From positions 1 to 59,936 of the IMG/VR virus record IMGVR_UViG_3300032893_000048: 59,936 nt of DNA. One strand, written 5' to 3'. Numbering within the stretch: position 1 is the first letter of the stretch; every line of letters starts with the position of its first letter. Of the stretch, positions 17,733-30,103 are shown piece by piece. The notes under the pieces are model-generated. The model was not told the DNA's origin. It ran no database searches and saw only the letters and a program-made list of their open reading frames with translations. This DNA comes from a virus. Lineage: Duplodnaviria; Caudoviricetes. The translations under genes and the position numbers were made by a program.

Positions 17733-20700
17733 ATGGCAAACCGCTATTGGGTTCCTGTCGCTGGATCAGGATCAGGCACATGGGATACATCTGACACCAC
17801 CCACTGGTCTACTTCTAGTGGTGGTGCTGGTGGATTTGCGCCGCCTACATCCAGCGATACGGCTATTTTCGACGCCAATAGCGGCACCGGAACAGTCACC
17901 GTCTCAAGTGCCGTCGCAAACACAGTCAATCTCAGTGCAAGCAGCATTCTTACATTCGTCAGTTCCGGGGTAACTTGTAGCGGCGCATTTACTGGCAAAG
18001 CTGCGGTTTCATTCGGACCAGCTCTTACAATGTCAGGCACCGGCAACCTGACAAGCAACGGCATGACACTACCGTCGCTGACGATCAACGGATCATCCAT
18101 CACGGTTACGTTGCAGGATGATCTGAATGTAAGCGGTACACTTACGCTTACCAAGGGGTCAATCAGCGCAGGCTCGCACAATGTTACCTGTGCGAACTTC
18201 TCGTCGAGCAATACCAATACCCGCACGATCAATTTAGGGACTGGCACCTGGAATCTTACTGGCACCGGAACCGTCTGGGATGTCTCGACCACCACTGGGC
18301 TGACTGTTACCCGTAATTCTGGCGGCGCGGGTACGATCAAACTATCAGATACCAGCACTACAGCGCGCACTTTTGCTGGCGGTGGCAAGAGCTATAGCAA
18401 CCTGTGGATTACGGGTTCAGGTAACAGCACGACCACCCTTACCGGTAGCAATCTTTTTACCGACATCCTGATTGATGCGGCTCCGCGCACCGTTACATTT
18501 CCGGCAAGCAGCACCACCACATACAACACGCTAAGGACGCGCGCTACAGCTACTGCGGCGATCACTCTCAATTCGTCGTCATCTGGCACAGCCGCAAGCC
18601 TGTCAAATAATAAGGGATACACGACATTTTGGGATTATTGCTCGATCAAGGATATTCATTCTGTCCAATCGAGCGTCTGCTATGCTGGAACGCATAGCAC
18701 GAACGTCAGCGGCAACGCCAACATCACCTTTACAAACCCGCCAAATGCGCTGACGGGAAACCAGACCATTACTTCATCTGGGATGTACTGGTGGACTGCT
18801 ACAGCAGACGGAACTCTGAAGTCTGAGCTGTGGGGTGCGGGCGCTCAGGGCAACACCGATACCGAGGCGGTGCAGGGTGGTGCTGGTGGTGCGTACTCGA
18901 AAGTTAATGCTTACCCAGTAAATAATTACTACAGCTACTTTGTCTACATCGTAGCTGCGGGGGCGGTCAATAATGTTGCGGATGGTACGGCTTATCCGAC
19001 CTTCCTTGAGACCCCGCTTACGCAATGCGCCTATGCCGGCAACGGCGGCGACAACCTGGGATTAAGCAATGGCGGCATTGGTGATGTCGTCTATAACGGC
19101 GGCTCGGGTGTTGGATGTGGGGGCGGTTCAAGCGCAGGCACAGCATCGAACGGAACTGATTCAACCGCGGGCAGCGACAGCGGCGCAGTCGGGCCAACGG
19201 GCAGTGGCCCGGGTGGCGACGGTGATTCCTCTGGTTCTGGTAATGGTAGTAACGGCGTCGCGCCTGGCGGTGGTGGTGGTGGCTCCTACGACATGACCGG
19301 CGGCCTGGGTGCCCAGGGCAAAGCGATCCTCACCTTCACGGCCTCAGGTGGTGGCACCACGGTCTACAGCGACATCCGCATCCCTGATTCGTGGGCCTCA
19401 CTCATCAACGCTGATATCAAGATGCCGATTGCTGAAATCCTCGGCATCCAGGCCGACCTGCGCACCGCTATCGCGCAGCTGGCGACGGCCCGCCTGGATG
19501 CTGTGGCCACCGATGCCTGGGTCCAGATCGTAGCCACGAGCTTGCGCATCGCCACGGACCTGCTCAGCACGATCAACGCGGATCGCACCATCCCCATCGA
19601 GTTCATCTCGAGCTCGGTGACGATTACCAGCGACCTCCGGGTTGCGATCGACAACCTGGCCGCCATGACCCGGGACCTGCGGAACGCGATCGACAACACC
19701 GAGTTGGCGCGGGCCGACCTGCTCGAGCCCATCGCCAACCTGCTGGTCGTGGCCGACAACCTGGTGCTGCCACGTGATGCAGCAGGTACCACCAGATCGG
19801 ACCTGCAGGACCCGTTCGCGGCACTTGGGACCGTGGCGCCGAGCGGCAGCGTCCGGTTCGACTGGGTGGGCAGGACCACCGATGACTTCGTGGTGTCGAC
19901 CGAGGAGCTGCTCAACGCCCGCCGTGATTCCATGATGGCGATGGAGAACCTCCAAACGGCGCGGACCGACCTGAAGCTGCTCGTGGCCTGGTTGACTAGC
20001 ATCAACGCGGACCAGCGCCTGCCGGTGGAGTGGGTGGGCGCCGCGGGGATCAACGCCTACGTGGCGGTGCCCTACGACTGGGTCACCCCGCTGCGGCGGG
20101 ACCTGACGGTCCCCATCGATGCAACGTTGGCCGCGCGGACCGACGTGGTCACGGCCCAAGAGCACATGATCCGTACCTACAACGACGAGCGCGGCACCAT
20201 CGAGTTCTTGCAGCAGGCGCGGCAGGATGGGCGGGTGGCGTTCGATTATCCGCTGGCCCTGACCGAGGATAGCCGGATCGTGATCGAGCGCCTGGGGGCC
20301 CTGCACGATGATCCGCGGTTCAACCTCGAGAACCTGCAGACGGCGCGGGTGGATGACCGCATCCCCTTCGAGAACCAGGGCGGCCTTGGTGCTCACTCAG
20401 ACGTGGTCATGCCGCTGGATTGGACCAGCAAGGTCATCGTTGATGCCGTGGTGCGGCGGGACAACACCGCCCTGCTGTTCGTCGATGAGAAGGTGGCCAT
20501 CGAGACCTTGAAGGTGGCGAGCCCGGTCGATACCACCTTCCGCTTCGCCTTCGGGCGGGACGTACACCAGGACGCCAAGGTCCTCATGGAATGGCTGGGG
20601 ATCAGTCAATTCTCCAGCGATTCCAAGCTGGCGTTCGACTGGACCTCACCGGTCCGGGGCGACGCGAGGCTCAACATTGAAGCAACGATCGCGGCTGGGG

Positions 20701-20924
20701 GCAGCTACCACCTGGTCGTGGAAAATCTTGCCAAGGTCCTGGGCATCGAGGTCCTGCCCGGTGACACCTTGGTGCTTGTCAACGCCGATTCGTTCATCAA
20801 GGCGGAGTGGGGCGGCTCCAGTGGGTTTGTGGAAGGCAACGCAGTTGTCATTCATATTGGCGCGCGCAGGTCGGTGTGGCATATACCTGCACGCATAGTT
20901 AAGCGTTACACCATCGAACAGTAA
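17733..20924 (+). CDS. Large virion fibre/adhesin-like protein (beta-helix-like N half, Gly-rich domain, 14-aa repeat stalk)
   Basis: MANRYWV.GSGTWD...HWSTSSGGAGG start; Thr/Ser/Gly-rich; D-periodic 14-mers from about 19359. Confidence 0.75.
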   Translation: MANRYWVPVAGSGSGTWDTSDTTHWSTSSGGAGGFAPPTSSDTAIFDANSGTGTVTVSSAVANTVNLSASSILTFVSSGVTCSGAFTGKAAVSFGPALTMSGTGNLTSNGMTLPSLTINGSSITVTLQDDLNVSGTLTLTKGSISAGSHNVTCANFSSSNTNTRTINLGTGTWNLTGTGTVWDVSTTTGLTVTRNSGGAGTIKLSDTSTTARTFAGGGKSYSNLWITGSGNSTTTLTGSNLFTDILIDAAPRTVTFPASSTTTYNTLRTRATATAAITLNSSSSGTAASLSNNKGYTTFWDYCSIKDIHSVQSSVCYAGTHSTNVSGNANITFTNPPNALTGNQTITSSGMYWWTATADGTLKSELWGAGAQGNTDTEAVQGGAGGAYSKVNAYPVNNYYSYFVYIVAAGAVNNVADGTAYPTFLETPLTQCAYAGNGGDNLGLSNGGIGDVVYNGGSGVGCGGGSSAGTASNGTDSTAGSDSGAVGPTGSGPGGDGDSSGSGNGSNGVAPGGGGGGSYDMTGGLGAQGKAILTFTASGGGTTVYSDIRIPDSWASLINADIKMPIAEILGIQADLRTAIAQLATARLDAVATDAWVQIVATSLRIATDLLSTINADRTIPIEFISSSVTITSDLRVAIDNLAAMTRDLRNAIDNTELARADLLEPIANLLVVADNLVLPRDAAGTTRSDLQDPFAALGTVAPSGSVRFDWVGRTTDDFVVSTEELLNARRDSMMAMENLQTARTDLKLLVAWLTSINADQRLPVEWVGAAGINAYVAVPYDWVTPLRRDLTVPIDATLAARTDVVTAQEHMIRTYNDERGTIEFLQQARQDGRVAFDYPLALTEDSRIVIERLGALHDDPRFNLENLQTARVDDRIPFENQGGLGAHSDVVMPLDWTSKVIVDAVVRRDNTALLFVDEKVAIETLKVASPVDTTFRFAFGRDVHQDAKVLMEWLGISQFSSDSKLAFDWTSPVRGDARLNIEATIAAGGSYHLVVENLAKVLGIEVLPGDTLVLVNADSFIKAEWGGSSGFVEGNAVVIHIGARRSVWHIPARIVKRYTIEQ

Positions 20925-21969: not shown

Positions 21970-22296
21970 ATGAGCAACCCGACCGTGCTGGTTAAATTCG
22001 CGAGTGCCGCGCCGCTCTTCAACATCGACCTGACAGCCTTGCTGAACGGTCGGACCATAGATCATCTGATCGAGTTGGTCGCGTTGAACGACGACGAGAA
22101 CACCCTGACGATCGGTGATGTGGTTATCAACGACACGCCTGTCGTGTTCGATGACGGCCAGGTCGCCCCAGTGCGGTCGGTTTTCCAATTAACGATCGGG
22201 GACGGCACCCCTGGCATGATCTACGAGCTAGCAGGCCAGTTCGTCATGTCAGGCGGTTACCCCGATGAATTTCGCGTGCTGCTGGAGGTTCTCTGA
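21970..22296 (+). CDS. Hypothetical structural protein
   Basis: 108-aa beta-rich ORF coupled to the portal gene. Confidence 0.6.
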   Translation: MSNPTVLVKFASAAPLFNIDLTALLNGRTIDHLIELVALNDDENTLTIGDVVINDTPVVFDDGQVAPVRSVFQLTIGDGTPGMIYELAGQFVMSGGYPDEFRVLLEVL

Positions 22297-25200
22297 TGCC
22301 CGGGCTAATCAAACGACTCGCTGACTCGACCAGGTATGTGCTGGCTGGGTCCAACCCGCTTGGTAAGGCGGCAAGTGAGCCGGTAAGCTTCACGGATCGG
22401 GTAACCGAGGCCACGCGCTACGTGGTTGACGGCATCCAGCCGGTGTCCTGGTTCTCGCCGGCCCAGCCGATGGAACCGGTGGCCCAGCAGGCGATCGGCC
22501 GCCAGTTCGACTACCCCGTCGGCTACAACCTGCGTATTACCCCACGGCAGGAGGAGGCGATCAGCTTCCCTCAGCTGCGCTCGCTGGCCGATAGCCATGA
22601 CATCACGCGGCTGCTCATCGAGACCCGTAAGGACCAGATGGTCAAGGTGCCGTGGAACATCATCTACCGCGACAGCCAGAAGAACCTGGACGACAACTCC
22701 AAGGACACCCGCATCCAGGAGGTGCTGGCCTTCCTGCGCATGCCGGATCGCATCAACACGTGGCAGAAGTGGTTGCGGGCCCTCATGGAGGACATGCTGG
22801 TCATCGACGCCGCCACGGTCTATCCTCGCTTCACGAAGGGCAAGAAGCTCTACTCGTTGGACCTGATCGACGGCGCCACCATCAAGCGGGTGCTGGATGA
22901 GACCGGCCGCGTGCCGATGCCGCCGAGCCCTGCATACCAACAGGTGCTCAAGGGCCTCGGGGCCGTCGACTACTCCGCCGACGACCTGATCTACGCGCCG
23001 CGCAACATTCGGACGAACCGCATCTACGGGTACTCACCCGTCGAGCAGATCATCATGACGATCAACATCGCCCTGCGCCGGCAGGTCCACCAGCTGCAGT
23101 ACTACACGGAAGGCAGCCTACCGGACCTGATCTTCACAGTGCCGGATTCGTGGACCACCGACCAGCTGGCCGAGTTCCAGGAGAACTGGAACATGGAGCT
23201 CGAGGGCAACACCGCGGCCCGGCGCAAGACCCGCTTCGTGCCGGACGGCACCAAGCCGCTGAACATCAAGGATGCGATCCTTAAGGACGAATACGACGAG
23301 TGGATCGCCCGTGTGTGCTGCTACTGCTTCAGCGTGCCGCCCACCGCCTTCGTGAAGCAGGTCAATCGATCCACATCTGAGTCGCTCCAGCAGGCGGCCC
23401 TGGAGGAAGGTCTCTATCCGCTCATGGCCTGGGTCAAGGACCTGATGGACATGATCCTGTGGCGCTACTTCGGCTACGATGACCTCGAGTTCGAATGGAA
23501 TCAGGAGAAGACCATCGATCAGGTCGAGCAGGCCACGATCGACAAGACCTACGTGGAGGCTGGCATCTGGTCGATCGACGAGGTGCGGGACCGCCAAGGT
23601 AAGCGGATGCTGGGGATCGGCAACATGATCATCACCGGGTCCGGTCCGGTCATGCTCAAGGACTTCACCGATGAGGCCCTGGACCAGCAGGCCAAGGAGG
23701 AGGAAGCTAACCAGGCGGCCGCCCTGCAGGCCGGGCCTCAGACGACGGCTCAGAATGAGCCGGGGACAACCGAGGTGACGCCAGGTGAACCGGGGCAGGC
23801 CAAGCCTGGGGTAACGCAGCCCAAGGGTGCCGCTCCCCAGAAGGCACCTCAGCCGGCCAAGCCGGCGGTGACCAAGGTGGACGACCAGGCCCACCAGGCG
23901 GCCACGAGTCCGTTGAACACCCGACCCGATCCGACCCCGGCCCAGATTCAGGCCGGCAACTATAAGAAGGGTCATGTGCAGCTGAACGGACTGCGGATTG
24001 CTATCGAGAACCCGCGTGGTTCTCAGCGGAGCGGGGTGGCAGCGGATGGCAGCACCTGGACCACCACGATGAACGACCACTACGGCTACATCAAGGGGTT
24101 CCGTGGAGCGGATGACGACTACGTGGATGTCTTCCTCGGCGCGAGGTGTGAAGATGCTGACTGCCCTGTACACATTATCAATCAGCTTGACCCTAGCACT
24201 GGCGATTTTGATGAGCACAAGGTGATGCTGGGCTACAGCTCGCCTGAGCAGGCCCAGATCGCGTATGCGATGAACTACTCGGACTACGCCACCGCGATCG
24301 ACCGCATCGGTAGCGTGAAGACGATGTCGCTGGACGACTTTAAGGACTGGCTTCGGCGAAGCTCAAATGACGAAGCCGCTAAGATGAGCAAAGGCGATAC
24401 GCCTGGGCATGACTTTCATGGGAATCAATATACCGCTGGCGAGGTTGCCGCTGTGAAGGAGTACCAGTCGGGCATGTATAACAGCGATGTCGGTGGCTAC
24501 GCCAACCTGCAGGGTATGCTTCGCACCGGCCAGCCTAAGTTCCCGCATGCGTGGGACGAGGCGCGTGGTCAGACGCACCTTGAGAACCTCAAGTCAGCGT
24601 TTGACAAGACGTCGACTGAGAAGGACACCACCGCCTACCGTGGCGTGCGGATCGAACGCGGCCAGCAGTCTGATCTTCTGACCGCCAAGGTCGGATCGAT
24701 CCTGACCGACAAAGGTGTGACGTCCACCTCCACCAGCAAGGACGTGGTGGCAAGCAAGTTCTCGAACCCGTTGAATCGGTCTGATCAGATCGTGCGGATG
24801 GAGATAAAGGTCCCAGCGGGCTCAAAAGCCATCGACATCGACCATGTCGCCGGCAAGGTTGGTGAGAAGGAGCTGGCACTGGCCCCGAACGCACGGCTGC
24901 AGGTGACCGGCCGCAGCGAGCGGAATGGCGTGATCCACCTGAAGGCCACCATGCTCCACGATGCAAAGAAGATGGCCAAGGCGGCGCCGAAGGCGATCAA
25001 CCGCACCCGCCCGGCGACGCTGAAGGCGAAGAAGGCCATTGAGGACGCGACGAAGAAGGTCTTCAAGAAAACCGCTAAGAGCGTGGCCGCTCAGCTGAGG
25101 TCCAAGCTCAAGAAGGCCCTCATCAAGGCAGATGATGTCGAGATGGTGCTGGCAAGCCTCGACCTGAGCGACCTCCAGGACCTGGGCCCGCAGCTACAAC

Positions 25201-25814
25201 GCATCTACGAGGAGTTGGGTCGGGACGGGGTGATGCAGGCACTGGTCCAGCTCAAGGAGATCGGCTACACGCCCACCACCGAGGAGGAAGCGTCAGTCAT
25301 CGAGCAGGCCAACTCGGCTGCCGTGACCTGGGCCCGCCAGCGCGCCGCGACCCTCGTGGGCCGCCATATCAACGAGGACGGTGAGATCGAGGAGGCGGTG
25401 CGGTCTGAGTATCAGATCGAGGAGACCACACGCAGCATGCTCCGCAGCCTGATCACCCGGGCGCTGGACGAGGGCACGACCCCGGCTGACCTCGCGCAAC
25501 AGCTCAGCGACGCCAGCGTGGCCGAGGACTTCCCCTTCAGCGATGCCCGCGCCACGACCATCGCCCGCACCGAGACGGCCTTCGCTGATGTCGCGGGGAA
25601 CATGGCGACCTACCGCAGCACCGGTGTGGTGGCCGGCAAGCGCTGGATTACCGCCGGCGATGACCAGGTTTCTGAGGACTGCGACGCCAACCATGAGCAG
25701 GGTGTCGTGGACCTGGAGGATGAGTTCCAAGGGGGCGTGGATGCCCCACCCCAGCATCCAAATTGCCGGTGCGACGTTGTGCCGGTGCTTGCATCTGATA
25801 CGGAGGAATCCTGA
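22296..25814 (+). CDS. Portal protein fused to an inorganic-pyrophosphatase-like domain, an ADP-ribosyltransferase and MuF (SPP1 gp7-like)
   Basis: Portal YGYSPVE, FSVPP, SIDEVR; InPase-like NYKKGH...IENPRGS.RSG...HYGYI...DVFLG...HKVMLG; ART YRG...STS...EKE; MuF IARTET...KRW...PPQHPNCRC. Confidence 0.9.
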   Translation: MPGLIKRLADSTRYVLAGSNPLGKAASEPVSFTDRVTEATRYVVDGIQPVSWFSPAQPMEPVAQQAIGRQFDYPVGYNLRITPRQEEAISFPQLRSLADSHDITRLLIETRKDQMVKVPWNIIYRDSQKNLDDNSKDTRIQEVLAFLRMPDRINTWQKWLRALMEDMLVIDAATVYPRFTKGKKLYSLDLIDGATIKRVLDETGRVPMPPSPAYQQVLKGLGAVDYSADDLIYAPRNIRTNRIYGYSPVEQIIMTINIALRRQVHQLQYYTEGSLPDLIFTVPDSWTTDQLAEFQENWNMELEGNTAARRKTRFVPDGTKPLNIKDAILKDEYDEWIARVCCYCFSVPPTAFVKQVNRSTSESLQQAALEEGLYPLMAWVKDLMDMILWRYFGYDDLEFEWNQEKTIDQVEQATIDKTYVEAGIWSIDEVRDRQGKRMLGIGNMIITGSGPVMLKDFTDEALDQQAKEEEANQAAALQAGPQTTAQNEPGTTEVTPGEPGQAKPGVTQPKGAAPQKAPQPAKPAVTKVDDQAHQAATSPLNTRPDPTPAQIQAGNYKKGHVQLNGLRIAIENPRGSQRSGVAADGSTWTTTMNDHYGYIKGFRGADDDYVDVFLGARCEDADCPVHIINQLDPSTGDFDEHKVMLGYSSPEQAQIAYAMNYSDYATAIDRIGSVKTMSLDDFKDWLRRSSNDEAAKMSKGDTPGHDFHGNQYTAGEVAAVKEYQSGMYNSDVGGYANLQGMLRTGQPKFPHAWDEARGQTHLENLKSAFDKTSTEKDTTAYRGVRIERGQQSDLLTAKVGSILTDKGVTSTSTSKDVVASKFSNPLNRSDQIVRMEIKVPAGSKAIDIDHVAGKVGEKELALAPNARLQVTGRSERNGVIHLKATMLHDAKKMAKAAPKAINRTRPATLKAKKAIEDATKKVFKKTAKSVAAQLRSKLKKALIKADDVEMVLASLDLSDLQDLGPQLQRIYEELGRDGVMQALVQLKEIGYTPTTEEEASVIEQANSAAVTWARQRAATLVGRHINEDGEIEEAVRSEYQIEETTRSMLRSLITRALDEGTTPADLAQQLSDASVAEDFPFSDARATTIARTETAFADVAGNMATYRSTGVVAGKRWITAGDDQVSEDCDANHEQGVVDLEDEFQGGVDAPPQHPNCRCDVVPVLASDTEES
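24390..24431 (+). repeat. KGDTPGHDFHGNQY tag, copy 1 (precedes the ART domain)
   Basis: Protein-level repeat, 4 copies in two head genes. Confidence 0.9.
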
Positions 25815-25816
25815 TC

Positions 25817-28555
25817 GTGGATATGTTTGTACAAATCACCAAGGTGGACGAGGCACGACGGGAGGTCTACGGTCGCGCGGTCCAGGAGGTCCCCGATAAG
25901 GCCGGGGAGATTTTTGACTATGCCACCAGTAAGCCCAACTTCGAGAAGTGGTCGGCTGATGTGGAGAAGGATTCCGGTGGCCGCTCACTGGGTAACGTGC
26001 GCTCCATGCATGGGAACGTCGCGGCTGGCAAGGTCATCAAGATCAACTTCAACGACGATGAGAAGGCCATCGACATCGGGGCCAGGATCGTCGACGACAA
26101 CGAGTGGCAGAAGGTGCTGGAGGGTGTCCACACCGGCTTCTCCATCGGCGGCAGCTACGGCAAGACCTGGCAGGACGGTAAGCTGAAGCGCTACACGGCC
26201 ATCCCCAGCGAGATCAGCTTGGTGGATCGTCCCTGCATTCCCACCGCCAAGTTCTTTCAGGTGGTGAAGATGGACGGCAGCACCGAGGACCGGGCATTCA
26301 TGGAGAAGGGCGATAAGCCCGGCCACGAGTTTCACGGGAATCAGTATAAGGAAAGTACTAATGCTGCCTTTGATGCCACTGCGAAAGCAAAAGAGGCATC
26401 TGCCAAAGCACACTCTGAAAAGACAGTAGAAGCGCATAAAGAGGCGATTACGGCTCATCGCGAGGCTAGCGAAGCTCATTATCAGGCGGCGAGGGTAAAC
26501 GCCTTGAGCACCGATAGACCACCTAAGGAGAAAGAGGCACGGGAAATTACTCACACCTCCCTGCGCCGTTATCACGACAGCGAAGTGGATAGCCATCAAG
26601 ATGCTATTCGCCGCATTGGAAAGACCGAATCCTCTGACGGCCTCGAAAAAGGTGACCATCCCGGTCATGAGTTCCATGGGAACCAGCACTCAGGTGGCGG
26701 CAGTGGTAAGGAAAGCGACGCCAACCGTGGACTTGCTCACAGCGCGGCTAGCAACCGCGCTGAGGCTGCCAGCGAGGCCGCGAAGAGCACCACGGGCAGC
26801 AATAAAGATAAGGCCCAAGCGCAATATCACGCGGCTACCGAGCACGCCAAGGCGAGCGCGGAGCACCGGGCCACGGGGAACCACGATAAGGCGGACTACC
26901 ACGCCCAGAAGGCGGCGGATCACGCCAAAGCAGGTAAGGACTATGAGCGCTCCGCTAAGAAAGCTGAGGAAGATGAGATGAATAAGGGCGACAAACCTGG
27001 GCATGAGTTCCATGGGAATCAGCATACCAAGGGCGCAGCAGGCGTGATCGATTCCAAGGACCACCTTAATTGGACTGGGAATCATGGTAAAGGTTCGCTT
27101 AAGGTGAGCGGCGACAAGATTACTTTGCAGGATTCTCACTATTCGCGTAGTAACGCTGAGCGTGCAGTGAGTGATGCAAAAAAGGATTGGAGTCCTGGTG
27201 GGATGTACCACTCCTATATGAAGGAACAAGGCTATGACGTATCACATGTCTCATCGAATATTGATGAGAAAGGTGATCGCTCTGTTGTATCACACACCAT
27301 TCGTGTAAATGGTCCAGCTGAAAAATCTGAGGAACCCGAAATGACGAAGTTGAGCGAGCAGGAGGTTTATGCCTCCGTGCAAAAGAGCATTATGGATGGC
27401 GCCATCACGCAGGACGACGTCCTTCGGGTACTGAGCAACCTGGCCAAGGGTAAGAAGGAAACCAAGGCATCCGATAAGGATGACGGCGAGGATGCCGACA
27501 AGCAGGACGATAAGAAGGATGATGAGGACGTCGATAAGAAGGACGACGCCGACAAGCAGGATGATGCTGATAAGAAGGACGATGCCGACAAGAAGGACGA
27601 CGGCAAGAAGGAAGGCGAGATCGAGAAGGTTGCGGCTCGCGACGACGTCGACCCCAAGGAGGGGAAGGAAAAGTACGGCGACGTCGAGTTCGCCGATGCC
27701 AAAAACAAGAAGTATCCGATCGACACGGAGGAGCATATCCGCGCCGCGTGGAACTACATCAACAAGGAGAAGAACGCGGGCAAATACGACGCCGAGGACC
27801 TGACCGCCATCAAAGCTAAGATCGTGAGCGCCTGGAAGTCCAAGATCGATAAGGAAGGTCCGCCCAGCGCCGCCGAGAAGAGTGAGGCCGTGACCCTGAA
27901 GAAGGGCATGTACACGGTCGCGGCGCTCGCCAACCTGCTGCAGCAAATTCGCAACATGGTGGACAACGTGAGCGCAGAGGCCGCAAGTGAGGGCGACAAC
28001 TCGACCCTGCCGGACCAGCTGATGAGCTGGCTGAAGTCGGGCGTGGATGTGCTCACGGACATGGTCGGTGAGGAAACGTCGGAGCTCGTGGGTGACGAGA
28101 ACGACGGGGACCTCCCGGTGCTGGCGATGAGCCAGGCCATCGGTGAACTTGCTAAGGCCGGCGCCCGCAACAGCAAGGCGGACCTTGACAAGCTCCAGCA
28201 GATGCATGACCTATGCAAGGACCTCGGGGCCAACTGCGGAGGCGGCATGGACAAGGCCGAGGGCGGTGACGCTCTCAACAAGGCACTGGGTCAGGTCAAC
28301 GAACTGAAGAAGACGGTTACCGAGCTCACCACCGCGCGTGATGAGCTCCAGAAGCGTGTTACTGAGTTGGAAGCGCAGCCTGAGGCACCGAAGGCCGTGC
28401 TGAAGAGCATCGACAAGGGCAGTGACATCCTCACTGCTGTTGATAGTGGAGATAAGGTTGAACCCATTACCAAGCGTGATGGTTCAGTTGACGAAACCGC
28501 CACGGCGTTCAAAAAGATTCTCGCCACCGGCGGTAAGCACATCTCGCGGATTTAA
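25817..28555 (+). CDS. Prohead protease (HK97/XkdF-like) plus tagged cargo modules, DUF6582-like domain and scaffold
   Basis: NVRSMH, GFSIGG, EISLVDRPC; FADAKNKKYPIDTEEHIRAAWNYI; C-terminal coiled coil; directly upstream of the capsid gene. Confidence 0.88.
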   Translation: MDMFVQITKVDEARREVYGRAVQEVPDKAGEIFDYATSKPNFEKWSADVEKDSGGRSLGNVRSMHGNVAAGKVIKINFNDDEKAIDIGARIVDDNEWQKVLEGVHTGFSIGGSYGKTWQDGKLKRYTAIPSEISLVDRPCIPTAKFFQVVKMDGSTEDRAFMEKGDKPGHEFHGNQYKESTNAAFDATAKAKEASAKAHSEKTVEAHKEAITAHREASEAHYQAARVNALSTDRPPKEKEAREITHTSLRRYHDSEVDSHQDAIRRIGKTESSDGLEKGDHPGHEFHGNQHSGGGSGKESDANRGLAHSAASNRAEAASEAAKSTTGSNKDKAQAQYHAATEHAKASAEHRATGNHDKADYHAQKAADHAKAGKDYERSAKKAEEDEMNKGDKPGHEFHGNQHTKGAAGVIDSKDHLNWTGNHGKGSLKVSGDKITLQDSHYSRSNAERAVSDAKKDWSPGGMYHSYMKEQGYDVSHVSSNIDEKGDRSVVSHTIRVNGPAEKSEEPEMTKLSEQEVYASVQKSIMDGAITQDDVLRVLSNLAKGKKETKASDKDDGEDADKQDDKKDDEDVDKKDDADKQDDADKKDDADKKDDGKKEGEIEKVAARDDVDPKEGKEKYGDVEFADAKNKKYPIDTEEHIRAAWNYINKEKNAGKYDAEDLTAIKAKIVSAWKSKIDKEGPPSAAEKSEAVTLKKGMYTVAALANLLQQIRNMVDNVSAEAASEGDNSTLPDQLMSWLKSGVDVLTDMVGEETSELVGDENDGDLPVLAMSQAIGELAKAGARNSKADLDKLQQMHDLCKDLGANCGGGMDKAEGGDALNKALGQVNELKKTVTELTTARDELQKRVTELEAQPEAPKAVLKSIDKGSDILTAVDSGDKVEPITKRDGSVDETATAFKKILATGGKHISRI
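26306..26347 (+). repeat. KGDKPGHEFHGNQY tag, copy 2
   Basis: Follows the protease domain. Confidence 0.9.
26648..26689 (+). repeat. KGDHPGHEFHGNQH tag, copy 3
   Basis: Seen in translation. Confidence 0.9.
26984..27025 (+). repeat. KGDKPGHEFHGNQH tag, copy 4
   Basis: Seen in translation. Confidence 0.9.
27470..27612 (+). repeat. Asp/Lys tandem repeat (DADKKD)n in the scaffold region
   Basis: DKKDDADKQDDADKKDDADKKDD; imperfect 18-nt DNA tandem. Confidence 0.85.
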
Positions 28556-28588: not shown

Positions 28589-30103
28589 ATGAGCATGAAT
28601 GATACCACGAACGCCAGCCTGGACTTGATCCGTAAGTCCCAGGCATCTCCGGTGGACCTGGCCAAGTCGACGTTCTCACAGTCGGCCTCTGCCACCTCCG
28701 GTCTTACCTTCTACGACCTGGAGCCCGGTGCGAAGCTGCTGTACCCCGTGCTGACCCCGCTCCGCAACATCATCCCCCGCGTGAGCGGTAAGGGTGGCAT
28801 TCAGGCTTCGTGGCGCGCTGTGACCGCGATCAATAGCACCAACGTGGGTGCTGGTCTCGGTGCAGGCAACCGCGGTGGCGTGATCCCCGTCACCACGGCC
28901 GACTACATCGCGGCCTACCGTGGCCTGGGTCTGGAATCCAACGTCGACTTCGAGGCGGATTACGCGGCTCGCGGCTTCGATGACGTCAAGGCCCTGGCGG
29001 TGCAGTCGCTGCTCGAGTCTCTGATGATCCAGGAGGAGCACACGATCCTCGGTGGCAACGCCAGCCTGGCGCTAGGCACCTGCCCCACCCCCTCGGTGAC
29101 GGGTTCCACCTCCGGCGGCACCGTCTCCACCGGCACGACCCTGAGCGTGAAGTGCGTGGCGCTCACCTACGAGGGCTACTACCGCTCCAGCATCGCCAAC
29201 GGCGTGCCTGGTCAGATCACTCGTACGAACGCCGATGCGTCGACCGACACCTTCGGTGGCGGCACGTCGCAGGTCTCTGCGGCCGGTACGGGCACGGTCG
29301 GTTCCTCGGCCGGTTCCGCCACCGCGACGGTGACGGCGGTCAAGGGTGCCGTGGCCTACGCGTGGTACTGGGGTGCCTCCGGCTCCGAGAAGATCGGTGC
29401 CATCACCACCATCAACTCGGTGAGCATCACCGCGGACGCGGCCGGTACGCAGACCCCGGCGGCAGCTGGTTCCTTCAGCGGCCTGGCCTCGGATTACAGC
29501 CGCAACACGCTGATCTTCGATGGCCTTATTTCGCAGATTTGCACCTCCGGTTCCAACGCTTACTACAAGGCGCTGGCGACGGGCACGGCTGGTGTCGGCA
29601 CCCCGCTGACCTCTAACGGTGCGGGCGGCATCTCCGAGATCGACGCAGCCCTGAAGAGCTTCTGGGACAACTATCGTCTGTCTCCTGATACCATCTGGGT
29701 GAGCTCGCAGGAGCAGGGCAACATCTCGGCGAAGGTGCTGGCCACGACCTCCGGCAACCCGGGCGCCCAGCGCTTCGTGTTCTCGGCTGATCAGTCGAAG
29801 GTCGGCGGCGGTGTGATGGTCACCTCCTATCGCAACCCGTACTCCATGGACGGGGCGAAGGAGATTCCCATCAAGCTCCACCCGACGCTGCCTCCCGGCA
29901 CGATCATCTTCACCACCAACCGCTTGCCCTACCCCATGAGCAACGTGGCCAACGTGGTGCAGGTGCGCACGCGTCAGGAGTACTACCAGATCGAGTGGCC
30001 GCTTCGCTCGCGCAAGTACGAGTACGGCGTCTATTGCGACGAGGTGCTGCAGAACTACGCACCTTTTGCCTTCGGCGTCATCACCAACATCGCCAACGGC
30101 TAA
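28589..30103 (+). CDS. Major capsid protein
   Basis: Follows protease/scaffold; YDLEPGAKLLYPVLTPLRNIIPRV; ends FGVITNI; strong codon bias. Confidence 0.9.
   Translation: MSMNDTTNASLDLIRKSQASPVDLAKSTFSQSASATSGLTFYDLEPGAKLLYPVLTPLRNIIPRVSGKGGIQASWRAVTAINSTNVGAGLGAGNRGGVIPVTTADYIAAYRGLGLESNVDFEADYAARGFDDVKALAVQSLLESLMIQEEHTILGGNASLALGTCPTPSVTGSTSGGTVSTGTTLSVKCVALTYEGYYRSSIANGVPGQITRTNADASTDTFGGGTSQVSAAGTGTVGSSAGSATATVTAVKGAVAYAWYWGASGSEKIGAITTINSVSITADAAGTQTPAAAGSFSGLASDYSRNTLIFDGLISQICTSGSNAYYKALATGTAGVGTPLTSNGAGGISEIDAALKSFWDNYRLSPDTIWVSSQEQGNISAKVLATTSGNPGAQRFVFSADQSKVGGGVMVTSYRNPYSMDGAKEIPIKLHPTLPPGTIIFTTNRLPYPMSNVANVVQVRTRQEYYQIEWPLRSRKYEYGVYCDEVLQNYAPFAFGVITNIANG

What the first reader, a model, noticed from the sequence alone, without database searches (positions are those of the whole stretch)
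24390..27340. Tagged cargo polyproteins: K|GDxPGH(E/D)FHGNQ heads four modules inside the portal and protease genes
Seen: the 14-aa motif occurs four times, once in the portal fusion (24390, directly before the ADP-ribosyltransferase) and three times in the protease-scaffold gene (26306, 26648, 26984). Each copy precedes a distinct module of about 100-180 aa. Synonymous positions differ between copies, so conservation is at the protein level. Each tag follows [M/L]-x-K (MSK, MEK, LEK, MNK), and similar xxK|[G/A/S/V/T] sites bound the other domains (VTK|V, MAK|A, LIK|A, IGK|T, AEK|S, IEK|V, LKK|G, LAK|A, MDK|A; capsid LAK|S). The modules at 26350-26620 and 27030-27320 look AT-richer than their flanks, as expected for swapped cassettes. 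Known: the HK97 protease cuts after Lys, and T4 packages internal proteins via a short capsid-targeting sequence and injects the ART Alt. Inference: cargo is built into procapsid proteins, excised by the prohead protease, and the exposed N-terminal GD.PGHEFHGNQ acts as a retention or ejection signal delivering host-takeover or anti-defence effectors. I know of no characterised function for this motif.
Basis: partly seen in the sequence, partly recalled or inferred. Interest (0 to 1): 0.92.

Follow-up and report, generated by a model that had tools for sequence, protein, structure and literature searches.

The report
Conserved tag punctuating phage head polyproteins
A short conserved peptide that marks the start of passenger modules inside this phage's portal and head-protease genes belongs to a widespread, phage-specific and apparently undescribed tag, probably exposed when the head protease cuts just before it.

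Summary
K|GDxPGH(E/D)FHGNQ occurs four times, only in the portal-InPase-ART-MuF gene and the protease-scaffold gene, and is conserved at protein level, not DNA level.

It is not a local oddity. A profile of the motif finds 1,921 protein clusters among 1.84 billion representatives, with up to 9 copies per protein. Nearly all sampled instances in viral contigs carry the full context. In bacterial genomes only about 8 of 119 pattern matches do. No Pfam model, solved structure or searchable paper covers it.

It sits at the N-terminal edge of modules and is followed by a Gly-rich linker. AlphaFold2 predicts it disordered.

Cleavage just before GD is supported indirectly. The preceding residue is fixed within a lineage and tracks the prohead-protease family. 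Some genes start directly with M-GD-x-PGH. The capsid protein of this family has an invariant Phi-x-K before its conserved N-terminus.

The tag is not obligatory. Most relatives carry cargo without it. What the tag itself does remains unknown.

The parts
22296..25814 (+). Portal-InPase-ART-MuF polyvalent head polyprotein (1172 aa)
   Evidence: Pfam: Phage_portal aa 114-434, InPase PF18823 aa 549-686, ADPrib_exo_Tox aa 733-875, Phage_Mu_F aa 1050-1161. PHROG portal 7.7e-123.
23940..24353 (+). InPase (polyvalent-protein pyrophosphatase) module; it has no GNQ tag in front of it
   Evidence: PF18823 E 1.5e-47. No motif upstream.
24390..24428 (+). Tag copy 1: MSK|GDTPGHDFHGNQ, heading the ART module
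24492..24920 (+). ADP-ribosyltransferase domain (C3/VIP2-like). YRG, STSTS and EKE are visible in the sequence
   Evidence: PF03496 40.8 bits against a cut-off of 23.4. Sequence printed. The assignment of the catalytic motifs is recalled, not from a call.
24972..24980 (+). MAK|A junction between cargo and MuF, a candidate protease site
   Evidence: The same KMAK|A stands between portal and MuF in Brevundimonas phage Polewnik. The cut itself is inferred.
25443..25778 (+). MuF (SPP1 gp7-like) head-morphogenesis domain
   Evidence: PF04233 E 2.3e-15
25817..28555 (+). Prohead protease - three tagged modules - DUF6582 - scaffold fusion (912 aa)
   Evidence: PHROG 9427 head maturation protease, E 3.9e-8. 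tblastn to capsid maturation proteases of 35 Streptomyces phage records. 428 homologues at E<=1e-5.
25817..26296 (+). Protease domain; His65 and Ser109 are invariant
   Evidence: 57-row alignment A4: H65 and S109 invariant. No Pfam S78 or S78_2 match at E<=0.01.
26306..26344 (+). Tag copy 2: MEK|GDKPGHEFHGNQ
26345..26650 (+). Module 1: His/Ala-rich helical module, GC-poor
   Evidence: Leave-out profile 26.6 bits against 5.0 for the best shuffle. GC 0.505-0.55.
26648..26686 (+). Tag copy 3: LEK|GDHPGHEFHGNQ
26687..26986 (+). Module 2: same helical family; predicted three-helix bundle with four near-invariant His
   Evidence: AF2: helices at 32-54, 59-82 and 86-118 with pLDDT 96-98. Near-invariant His columns in A5. 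Leave-out profile 21.6 bits.
26984..27022 (+). Tag copy 4: MNK|GDKPGHEFHGNQ
27023..27340 (+). Module 3: orphan module, GC-poorest stretch of the region
   Evidence: No Pfam match. No homologue beyond the tag itself. No usable Atlas hit. GC 0.45-0.535.
27626..27838 (+). DUF6582 domain, common in this protease-scaffold family
   Evidence: PF20223 E 7.4e-27. Present in many homologues.
27839..28552 (+). Scaffold-like C-terminal part with conserved Phi-x-K sites (LKK|GMY, LAK|AGARNS and others)
   Evidence: Conserved K columns with a hydrophobic residue two positions upstream in 94-100% of rows. That they are cut is inferred.
28589..30103 (+). Major capsid protein (HK97 fold) with predicted maturation site LAK|STF at 28658-28666
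   Evidence: The AF2 model's best Foldseek matches are phage capsid proteins (SU10, Pa223, HK97; prob 1.00; E 2e-4 to 7e-3). K26 is invariant in 34 relatives. Variable propeptide followed by Phi-x-K in the 61 of 80 loci where the N-terminal region was captured.

Best explanation
The motif is a portable 'cargo-boundary tag' of tailed-phage head polyproteins. Its general form is Phi-x-P1 | G-D-x-(P)-G-H-x-F-[R/H]-G-N-Q-[W/Y/H]-T-x-G-G..., that is, a disordered 13-residue peptide followed by a Gly-rich linker and then a passenger domain.

In this phage, passengers are built into two proteins that are certain to enter the procapsid. The ART sits between portal and MuF. Two His-rich helical bundles and one orphan module sit between the prohead protease and its scaffold.

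The HK97-like Ser/His prohead protease cuts after Phi-x-K. This is the same site type that trims the capsid protein at LAK|STF. Each passenger is therefore freed inside the head with GDxPGH... as its new N-terminus (inferred, not shown).

The tag travels with the cassettes, while the three residues before it adapt to the local protease. The invariant tag most likely docks to a conserved partner of the head machinery. The protease itself or the capsid interior are the best candidates, serving capture, processing or later release with the DNA. This last step is conjecture.

The tag is optional: many related phages carry untagged cargo.
For: Reality and spread:
- 4 copies forward, 0 reverse and 0 in the control.
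- 1,921 protein clusters at E<=1e-3, 436 at <=1e-10 and 63 at <=1e-30 among 1.84e9 representatives, with up to 9 copies per protein.
- Among 157 unique IMG/VR instances, G stands at -3 in 152, D at -2 in 141 and an aromatic residue or His after Q in 155. G/A/S-rich positions follow.

Phage specificity:
- In 596 Gb of prokaryote genomes, only 7 of 119 pattern matches have the GD...aromatic context, plus one variant.

Head and effector context:
- Among 158 motif-bearing IMG/VR ORFs: MuF 10, portal families 10, XkdF protease 8, DUF2213 5. Also present are ARTs, topoisomerase IB, PI3/4-kinase-like, GNAT, Acb1, 2H phosphoesterase, NUDIX, PBECR and pentapeptide domains.
- The top 28 multi-copy proteins are rich in ART and MuF domains.
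- In 27 records with an identified protease, the nearest tag lies within 3 kb in 16, within 10 kb in 24, and in the same ORF as the protease domain in 9.

Cut before GD:
- (a) The residue before GD has 2.09 bits of entropy overall but 0.37 within a protein.
- (b) It tracks the protease family. In 21 records with XkdF or S78 it is K in 18, and in 3 it is the K|GGPGSG variant. In 6 records with DUF2213 it is L 4, A 1 and D 1, never K. Fisher p is 3e-6, or 5e-4 to 3e-3 after collapsing related records.
- (c) Five genes start M-G-D-x-P-G-H with an upstream stop overlapping the ATG or a ribosome-binding site, and two more have 5-6 residue leaders. Only 1 of 149 instances ends at a stop.
- (d) In this capsid family, 7 of 7 tags near the capsid gene follow Phi-x-K.
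- (e) The capsid K26 is invariant, preceded by a variable propeptide and followed by a conserved N-terminus. One relative's cargo begins M|STF... directly.

Linear-motif nature:
- AF2 gives pLDDT 52-57 and no secondary structure for the tag, against 96-98 for the bundle behind it.
- The same tag precedes unrelated domains. Only 77 of 786 post-tag segments are the helical family.
Against: - No experiment shows cleavage or packaging.
- The within-protein constancy of the residue before GD is matched by the R/H position inside the motif (ratio to shuffle 0.34 for both). Shared ancestry therefore explains part of that signal. The protease correlation rests on few independent lineages, since four of the six DUF2213 records are close relatives.
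- The tag is dispensable. 115 of 120 nearest protease-scaffold homologues lack it, including all 14 that are 800 aa or longer; Pfam lists NUDIX, LigT or Acb1-like (PF23474) domains for 8 of these. 73 of 80 same-family loci lack it. 14 of 14 portal-MuF fusions in relatives lack it, although some have inserts of up to 344 aa. The InPase module in the same gene is untagged.
- Three of 27 records have tags 18-68 kb from the protease gene.
- 23 of 50 long records had no recognisable protease family.
- Modules 1-3 show no effector signature.
Confidence: 0.5

Rival explanations
1. Host-directed tag. The peptide is irrelevant to head assembly. After ejection it acts in the infected cell, for example by docking diverse effectors onto a universally conserved bacterial hub protein, or by giving them a stable Gly N-terminus.
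For: The core is invariant across phages with different proteases and very different head proteins. It is attached to enzymes typical of host takeover or anti-defence, such as ART, Acb1, NUDIX, kinase-like and GNAT domains. In this window incorporation is already guaranteed by fusion, so a packaging signal would be redundant.
Against: No host partner is suggested by any result. Two of the four tagged modules here are small helical bundles with no enzymatic signature. The tight coupling to a protease-type-specific upstream site and to protease genes points to a role in the head.
Confidence: 0.17
2. Pure cleavage cassette. The conserved stretch is only the prime-side part (P1'-P13') of an extended protease recognition site that lets foreign inserts be cut out efficiently. 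The freed N-terminus has no further function.
For: The position is always immediately downstream of the lineage-specific Phi-x-P1 triplet. Tags are often in or next to the protease gene. All identified protease families belong to the HK97/XkdF-like group, and ClpP and S49 were found in 0 of 35 records each.
Against: Genes that begin M-GD-x-PGH have nothing upstream to cut yet keep the whole motif. The capsid and scaffold sites of the same protease lack the motif. Thirteen invariant or near-invariant residues are far more than known prohead-protease sites use; this last point is recalled, not from a call.
Confidence: 0.15
3. Metal-binding element. The His of the tag acts together with His-rich passengers as a metal site, and the motif is a structural or metal-binding repeat rather than a signal.
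For: The tag has an invariant His and often a second one. The commonest single passenger family has four near-invariant His spaced seven residues apart on two helices.
Against: The second position alternates R/H. Only 77 of 786 tags precede the His-rich family. AF2 does not pack the tag onto the bundle. The motif is absent from cellular proteins, so it is not an ordinary metal-binding repeat.
Confidence: 0.07
4. Uncleaved interdomain linker or recombination joint. The motif is kept because it allows cassette shuffling or spacing, and the polyproteins stay intact.
For: It lies at every module boundary where it occurs. The flanking modules differ in GC, which suggests cassette exchange. Some large packaged phage proteins remain unprocessed, according to passages of Iyer 2017 seen.
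Against: Synonymous sites differ freely between copies, so DNA homology is not what is conserved. A spacer would not need invariant H, F, G, N and Q. The lineage-specific upstream residue and the M-GD gene starts are unexplained by this reading.
Confidence: 0.08

Closest known systems
Phage T4 capsid-targeting sequence, with gp21 processing of internal proteins and the ART Alt (recalled knowledge)
   Same: Passenger proteins, including an ADP-ribosyltransferase, are built into the prohead. They are trimmed by the prohead protease at a short hydrophobic-x-P1 site and delivered with the DNA.
   Different: In T4 the conserved targeting peptide lies upstream of the cut and is discarded. Here the conserved peptide lies downstream and would be kept. 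P1 is Lys here rather than Glu. The protease is HK97/XkdF-like rather than gp21-like. Passengers are embedded in portal-MuF and protease-scaffold fusions.
Polyvalent proteins of phages and conjugative elements (Iyer et al. 2017, PMC5512222; passages read)
   Same: Multidomain virion-associated proteins combine MuF, portal, InPase, ART and other effector domains. The paper itself notes InPase-portal fusions.
   Different: The main text has 0 occurrences of 'GNQ' and 'linker'. It proposes processing mainly by zincin-like metallopeptidases. The punctuating tag and its link to HK97-like prohead proteases are not described there. Its supplementary alignments could not be seen.
HK97 prohead protease gp4 and capsid gp5 maturation; encapsidation through a short protease tail (recalled knowledge)
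   Same: A Ser/His prohead protease cuts after Lys, and a short peptide suffices to carry a protein into an HK97-fold shell.
   Different: No Pfam S78 match for this protease. The tag sequence is unrelated. Here the protease is fused to the scaffold and to passengers.
Encapsulin cargo-loading peptides (recalled knowledge)
   Same: A short conserved disordered peptide plus a flexible Gly-rich linker precedes many unrelated cargo domains destined for an HK97-fold shell. This is the closest analogy for how the tag may work.
   Different: Encapsulin peptides are mostly C-terminal, have a different sequence and need no proteolysis. No binding of the GNQ tag to any shell protein has been shown.
MuF polymorphic toxins of temperate phages (Jamet et al. 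2017, PMC5576092; term search only)
   Same: An N-terminal MuF domain is followed by variable toxin or effector domains in head gene clusters.
   Different: The main text has no mention of a linker, conserved motif, cleavage or GNQ (0 occurrences of six terms). In the window, MuF is C-terminal to the cargo.

Membership tests
Phage polyvalent proteins (Iyer et al. 2017) | Several unrelated enzymatic or effector domains in one polypeptide together with a virion anchor (MuF or portal) | tested here: met
   Portal + InPase + ADPrib_exo_Tox + MuF in one 1172-aa ORF
Phage polyvalent proteins (Iyer et al. 2017) | Domains of the polyvalent-protein-specific families (e.g. InPase PF18823) | tested here: met
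   PF18823 161.3 bits against a cut-off of 26.8
Phage polyvalent proteins (Iyer et al. 2017) | Zincin-like metallopeptidase proposed as the processing enzyme (a frequent theme rather than a strict requirement) | tested here: not met
   No such Pfam family at E<=0.01 in either ORF
T4-type capsid-targeting sequence system | Conserved N-terminal leader upstream of the cut, removed by the protease | tested here: not met
   The conserved element lies downstream of the predicted cut. The upstream residues vary apart from Phi-x-P1.
T4-type capsid-targeting sequence system | Cleavage after L/I-x-E by a gp21-type protease | tested here: not met
   P1 is Lys in all four copies. The protease resembles HK97/XkdF-type enzymes.
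HK97/XkdF-like prohead serine proteases | Match to a curated family model | tested here: inconclusive
   No Pfam S78 or S78_2 match at E<=0.01. PHROG 9427 'head maturation protease' E 3.9e-8. tblastn to annotated maturation proteases, E 2e-6 to 9e-6.
HK97/XkdF-like prohead serine proteases | Conserved catalytic His and Ser | tested here: met
   H65 and S109 (in GFSIGG) are invariant in 57 sequences. Their catalytic role is inferred.
HK97/XkdF-like prohead serine proteases | Proteolysis of capsid, scaffold and cargo at Phi-x-K | not testable with these tools
   Comparative support only
C3/VIP2-like ADP-ribosyltransferases (PF03496) | Family model over the cut-off, and the R / S-T-S / E-x-E motifs | tested here: met
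   40.8 bits against a cut-off of 23.4. YRG, STSTS and EKE are seen in the printed sequence. The motif assignment is recalled.
Encapsulin cargo-loading peptides | Peptide shown to bind the luminal face of the shell protein | not tested
   No binding test against the capsid protein was run. This is an analogy only.

The most novel reading that the evidence does not exclude
The GNQ tag is a general, portable address label of tailed phages. Any protein carrying it behind a protease-matched Phi-x-P1 site, or directly behind the initiator Met, is captured in the procapsid by docking to a conserved surface, either the prohead protease or the HK97-fold interior. It is then released by cleavage and ejected with the DNA. 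If so, thousands of phage lineages would share one exchangeable delivery system for anti-defence and takeover enzymes, and the tag could be used to load chosen proteins into capsids. A second punctuation motif (W-D/K-E-x-x-HPR-x-x-x-G-x-F) and a capsid N-arm mimic seen in relatives would be parallel labels of the same kind.
Probability: 0.3. Interest if true: 0.88.

Novelty: new variant of a known kind. Interest (0 to 1): 0.72.

Why it matters
Phages are known to pre-load proteins into their heads and inject them. How diverse passengers are recruited, cut free and exchanged between phages is understood only for a few model phages.

A 13-residue tag shared by at least about 1,900 protein clusters gives a concrete handle on that question. 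It is attached to ARTs, Acb1-like phosphodiesterases, NUDIX enzymes, kinases, topoisomerases and many unknown domains. It offers:
- a sequence rule for finding packaged effectors in metagenomes;
- a prediction of the mature N-termini;
- a read-out of prohead-protease specificity, from the residue before GD;
- a candidate tool for loading proteins into capsids.

It also shows that the 'polyvalent proteins' have a punctuation that, as far as the searchable literature goes, has not been pointed out.

Tried and rejected
- Complex prediction of the protease domain (A4, residues 1-165) with the tag peptide (A2): no verdict, score 0.00. It is not used as evidence either way.
- tblastn of a 26-aa tag peptide against 50,697 phage records: no match, because the query is too short. 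The ART module gave 1 hit.
- Search for cultured phages with the tag. Pseudomonas phage F116 giant proteins p59 and p60 have none. P. syringae phage Orisa03 has a portal-ART fusion without GNQ. A six-frame scan of the Micromonospora phage pMLP1 locus printed no match either. No tagged isolate with virion proteomics was found.
- Pfam at E<=1 on 10 tag-bearing small proteins: nothing covers the tag.
- PDB profile search at E<=10: 0 hits.
- Foldseek of the helical-bundle model against PDB and BFVD: no hit at E<=1e-3.
- Module 3: no homologue beyond the tag itself and no usable Atlas hit.
- BLASTP of module 1 against module 2: no alignment. Their kinship shows only with a profile.
- ClpP and S49 proteases: 0 of 35 records each.
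- The idea that tag count scales with insert size in the protease family is rejected: correlation -0.02.
- The idea that the tag is the N-terminal part of the helical domain is rejected.
- The reading as a chance or low-complexity match is rejected.
- Literature: the motif strings and 'GNQ' together with phage terms gave nothing relevant. Broader searches on packaged cargo found no description.
Full report
**1. What is in the window**

The window is a whole IMG/VR virus record of 59,936 bp, estimated 100% complete.

ORF 22296-25814 (1172 aa) combines four Pfam domains: Phage_portal (aa 114-434), the polyvalent-protein pyrophosphatase InPase (549-686), an ADP-ribosyltransferase of the exoenzyme type (733-875) and Phage_Mu_F (1050-1161).

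ORF 25817-28555 (912 aa) starts with a prohead protease. It matches PHROG 9427 at E 3.9e-8. By tblastn it matches annotated maturation proteases of 35 Streptomyces phage records. His65 and Ser109 are invariant in a 57-row alignment. The ORF ends with DUF6582 and a scaffold-like part.

ORF 28589-30103 is the major capsid protein. Its AlphaFold2 model has a mean pLDDT of 67, with well-predicted core blocks. Its best Foldseek matches are the SU10, Pa223 and HK97 capsid proteins (prob 1.00, E 2e-4 to 7e-3).

**2. The observation**

The degenerate DNA pattern gives 4 forward, 0 reverse and 0 in the control.

The preceding triplets are MSK, MEK, LEK and MNK. Between copies, 3-7 of the 11-12 same-residue codons are synonymous variants, so the peptide is what is conserved.

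GC dips below the 0.592 mean over modules 1 and 3, but not over module 2.

The nearest isolated phages are Brevundimonas phages Polewnik and Strzyga. In Polewnik, whose genes were read, the portal-MuF fusion is 775 aa, the protease-scaffold is 594 aa and the capsid gene is homologous. Polewnik has no motif and none of the inserted modules. It shares KMAK|A between portal and MuF, and LAK|STF in the capsid protein. The tagged modules are therefore insertions.

**3. How widespread the motif is**

These held 199 instances, with up to 8 per locus. Among 157 unique instances the context is as follows:
- hydrophobic at -6 (I/V/L in 94);
- K at -4 (85; otherwise L 19, S 13, A 11, F 11, D 9);
- G at -3 (152) and D at -2 (141);
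- after Q, Y/W/H/F (155), then T, then a G/A/S-rich run.

A profile of 144 such 36-residue segments was run against 1.84 billion representative proteins. It finds 1,921 clusters at E<=1e-3, 436 at <=1e-10 and 63 at <=1e-30, with up to 9 copies in one protein. Single-copy proteins mostly cannot reach that threshold, so this is a lower bound.

Only 7 of 119 instances there, plus one variant, had the GD...aromatic context. The rest were chance matches or a non-coding repeat of one MAG. At least one of the true hits coincides with an IMG/VR provirus (the same peptide in L055 and L206).

The motif is therefore phage-specific, not a cellular repeat.

**4. Where the motif sits**

Pfam on all 158 motif-bearing IMG/VR ORFs of 60 aa or more gives these counts (two batches of 79):

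| Family | ORFs |
|---|---|
| Phage_Mu_F | 10 |
| Portal families (Portal_Mu 4, Phage_portal_3 4, Phage_portal 2) | 10 |
| Peptidase_S78_2 (XkdF) | 8 |
| DUF2213 | 5 |
| PI3_PI4-kinase-like | 6 |
| ADPrib_exo_Tox | 5 |
| Topoisomerase IB | 4 |
| GNAT | 3 |
| Pentapeptide | 3 |
| 2H phosphoesterase | 3 |
| ART-PolyVal | 2 |
| Acb1 | 2 |

Single cases include NUDIX, PBECR1, PBECR3, DarA_C, Zeta toxin and Arr. Most ORFs have no Pfam match.

The 28 top multi-copy proteins show the same repertoire: ADPrib_exo_Tox 7, ART-PolyVal 4, MuF 4, DUF7178 4 and others. No conjugation-type family appears in the listed top 25.

In one contig (L118), a protease gene with a GFSIGG Ser motif like the window's is followed on the same strand by a run of about nine ORFs; the XkdF family assignment was not tested. 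Several of these ORFs have a short leader, the tag and a different domain.

In 27 long records with an identified protease family, the nearest tag lies within 3 kb in 16 and within 10 kb in 24. It is in the same ORF as the protease domain in 9. In three records it is 18-68 kb away.

**5. Evidence that the cut falls just before GD**

(a) In 121 proteins with three or more copies (488 instances), the residue before GD has 2.09 bits of entropy overall but 0.37 within a protein. This is 0.34 of the shuffled value and, together with one other position, the strongest lineage signal of any variable position. That other position is the R/H residue inside the motif, which behaves alike, so common descent contributes.

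Lineage signatures extend over three residues: [IVL]-x-K, [RK]-x-[LA], x-E-[FL], x-x-E, x-x-D and x-x-N.

(b) The residue tracks the protease family:

| Protease family found | Records | Residue before GD |
|---|---|---|
| XkdF (PF14550) | 19 | K in 16; K\|GGPGSG-xx-PGH variant in 3 |
| S78 (PF04586) | 2 | K in 2 |
| DUF2213 (PF09979) | 6 | L 4, A 1, D 1; never K |

Fisher p is 3e-6. After collapsing the four closely related DUF2213 records it is 5e-4, and 3e-3 under a harsher halving. The ORF holding the DUF2213 match also matches a PHROG annotated head maturation protease; the two matched stretches overlap. The match is weak (E 6e-6). In 23 of 50 records no family was found, as also holds for the window's own enzyme in Pfam.

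(c) Five genes begin M-G-D-x-P-G-H. In three of them the upstream stop overlaps the ATG, and the other two have a ribosome-binding site or an in-frame stop just upstream. Two more genes have leaders of 5-6 residues ending I-E-K| or S-T-L|. Of 149 unique full-context instances, 7 start within 8 residues of the first possible start codon, and only 1 ends within 8 residues of a stop. After removal of the initiator Met, which is expected before Gly (general knowledge), these proteins would begin exactly as the predicted cleavage products do.

(d) Among 80 loci of the window's own capsid family (51-65% identity), 7 carry a genuine tag within about 6 kb of the capsid gene. All 7 follow Phi-x-K.

(e) The capsid protein of that family has a variable 25-45 residue N-terminal stretch, then Phi-x-K, then a conserved STF.QSGSATSGL..YDLE or AWTQSGSA.SGITAYDLE. 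This was seen in the 61 of 80 loci where the region was captured, and K26 is invariant in 34 aligned sequences.

In two long protease-family homologues, NUDIX and Acb1-like cargo sits N-terminal to the protease. It begins MTAIEK|STFAEPASATSGLQGYDLEG in one and M|STFGAPGSATSGLQGYDLEG in the other. This copies the mature capsid N-terminus, once behind I-E-K and once directly behind Met.

(f) Four conserved Lys columns in the scaffold part of the protease family have a hydrophobic residue two positions upstream in 94-100% of rows.

Against over-reading: Phi-x-K sites as such are not enriched in the portal ORF (17 against 16.0 expected). They are only mildly enriched in the protease ORF (28 against 18.1).

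**6. What the tag is like**

With a 38-row alignment, AlphaFold2 models tag plus module 2 as a confident three-helix bundle (pLDDT 96-98). It is preceded by about 30 residues, including the tag, with pLDDT 52-57 and no secondary structure. So the tag is a linear, probably disordered peptide on a flexible linker.

The bundle family has four near-invariant His, spaced seven residues apart on two helices in most members. It follows only 77 of 786 tags, with 0 hits in the shuffled control. It includes window modules 1 and 2 by a leave-out test.

No Pfam model covers the tag. No solved structure contains it.

**7. What speaks against a general requirement**

- Of the 120 best homologues of the protease-scaffold, out of 428 at E<=1e-5, only 5 carry a tag. 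In each case it is one tag plus the helical bundle, inserted at varying places.
- The 14 homologues of 800 aa or longer carry none. Pfam lists NUDIX, LigT or Acb1-like (PF23474) domains for 8 of them. One has ChaB together with PF23474, and a shorter homologue is named DUF1330.
- 14 portal-MuF fusions in relatives have no tag, although the gaps between the domains reach 344 residues.
- The InPase in the window's own portal gene is untagged.

The tag is therefore an optional accessory of some cassettes. It is not the way cargo in general is packaged, cut or delivered.

**8. Mechanism**

Shown:
- the domain architecture and the insertion nature of the modules;
- the spread, phage specificity and head-gene association of the tag;
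- its position at module N-termini and its predicted disorder.

Inferred with moderate confidence (about 0.6):
- the prohead protease cuts between P1 and Gly, so the modules are released inside the head with the tag as their N-terminus.

Conjecture:
- The invariant tag binds a conserved partner. Because incorporation is already assured by fusion here, and because leaderless M-GD genes exist, I favour docking to the head machinery. The candidates are the protease, which would explain the adjacency to the scissile bond and to protease genes, or the capsid interior, by analogy with encapsulin loading peptides. Capture, processing and possibly release with the DNA would follow from this.
- A host-directed role, a pure cleavage cassette, a metal site and an uncleaved linker are the rivals.

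The one complex prediction I could run gave no verdict.

**9. Known or new**

The architecture belongs to the polyvalent proteins of Iyer et al. 2017. I saw the abstract and passages of that paper, and its main text has 0 occurrences of 'GNQ' or 'linker'. The logic resembles T4 internal-protein and Alt packaging (recalled).

The tag itself was not found in three searches: the full-text search for six motif strings, a search for further motif strings with 'bacteriophage' and a search for 'GNQ' with phage, motif and capsid. It is also absent from the MuF-toxin paper, by term search only.

I rate the finding a new variant of a known kind: a known strategy (packaged, protease-processed cargo in polyvalent head proteins) with an apparently undescribed, very widespread punctuation tag.

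Noticed in passing
P0208 and P0178 (protease-family homologues); compare window 28658-28730: In two long homologues, NUDIX plus Acb1-like (2H/PF23474) cargo sits N-terminal to the protease. It begins with a copy of the mature capsid N-terminus (K|STF..ASATSGL..YDLEG in one, M|STF... in the other). This looks like a second kind of N-terminal label, a capsid N-arm mimic.
   Followed up: partly
L034, L079, L112, L115 and P0012: A second short punctuation motif, W-[D/K]-E-x-x-H-P-R-x-x-x-G-x-F followed by a G/S-rich stretch, occurs in some GNQ-bearing polyvalent proteins. A related KHPRSDDGKFGSNG precedes the ART in the portal-ART fusion of Pseudomonas phage Orisa03. It is not present in the window.
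   Followed up: partly
window 26345-26986; alignment A5: The helical passenger family is a predicted three-helix bundle. It has four near-invariant His, spaced seven residues apart on two helices in most members. It occurs in phages with K, D, N and A before GD and is inserted at different places in protease-scaffold proteins. Its function is unknown; it may be a metal- or pH-sensitive internal protein.
   Followed up: partly
L138, L139, L149, L167-L169, L179, L191, L197, L201, L203, L208, L230, L234, L241, L245 (one Desulfomonilaceae MAG): The DNA pattern hit an identical 16-codon frame bounded by stops at 16 or more places on three contigs of one MAG. This is a dispersed non-coding repeat unrelated to the phage tag.
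   Followed up: no
L087:952-4719 (-): A 1256-aa tag-bearing polyvalent protein matches, at residues 294-399, a PHROG annotated 'released from the phage upon host infection' (E 3.6e-15). It also matches a primase-like PHROG.
   Followed up: no
Top multi-copy proteins (A3) and IMG/VR ORFs (A6): Intein splicing domains occur inside some tag-bearing polyvalent proteins: 2 of 28 and 1 of 79.
   Followed up: no
window 17733-20924 (+): A 1063-aa ORF lies a few genes upstream of the portal gene. It has a Gly/Ser/Thr-rich N-terminal half and many repeats of the type ...ARxDL.../...TARTDL... in its C-terminal half. It was not analysed.
   Followed up: no
window 25817-26296 versus Pfam: The window's protease family has at least 428 homologues, many in Burkholderia, Paraburkholderia and Bradyrhizobium genomes. 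It has invariant His/Ser but is missed by Pfam S78 and S78_2. Members are named only after DUF6582 or after their cargo, for example 'NUDIX domain-containing protein' or 'Anti-CBASS protein Acb1'.
   Followed up: partly
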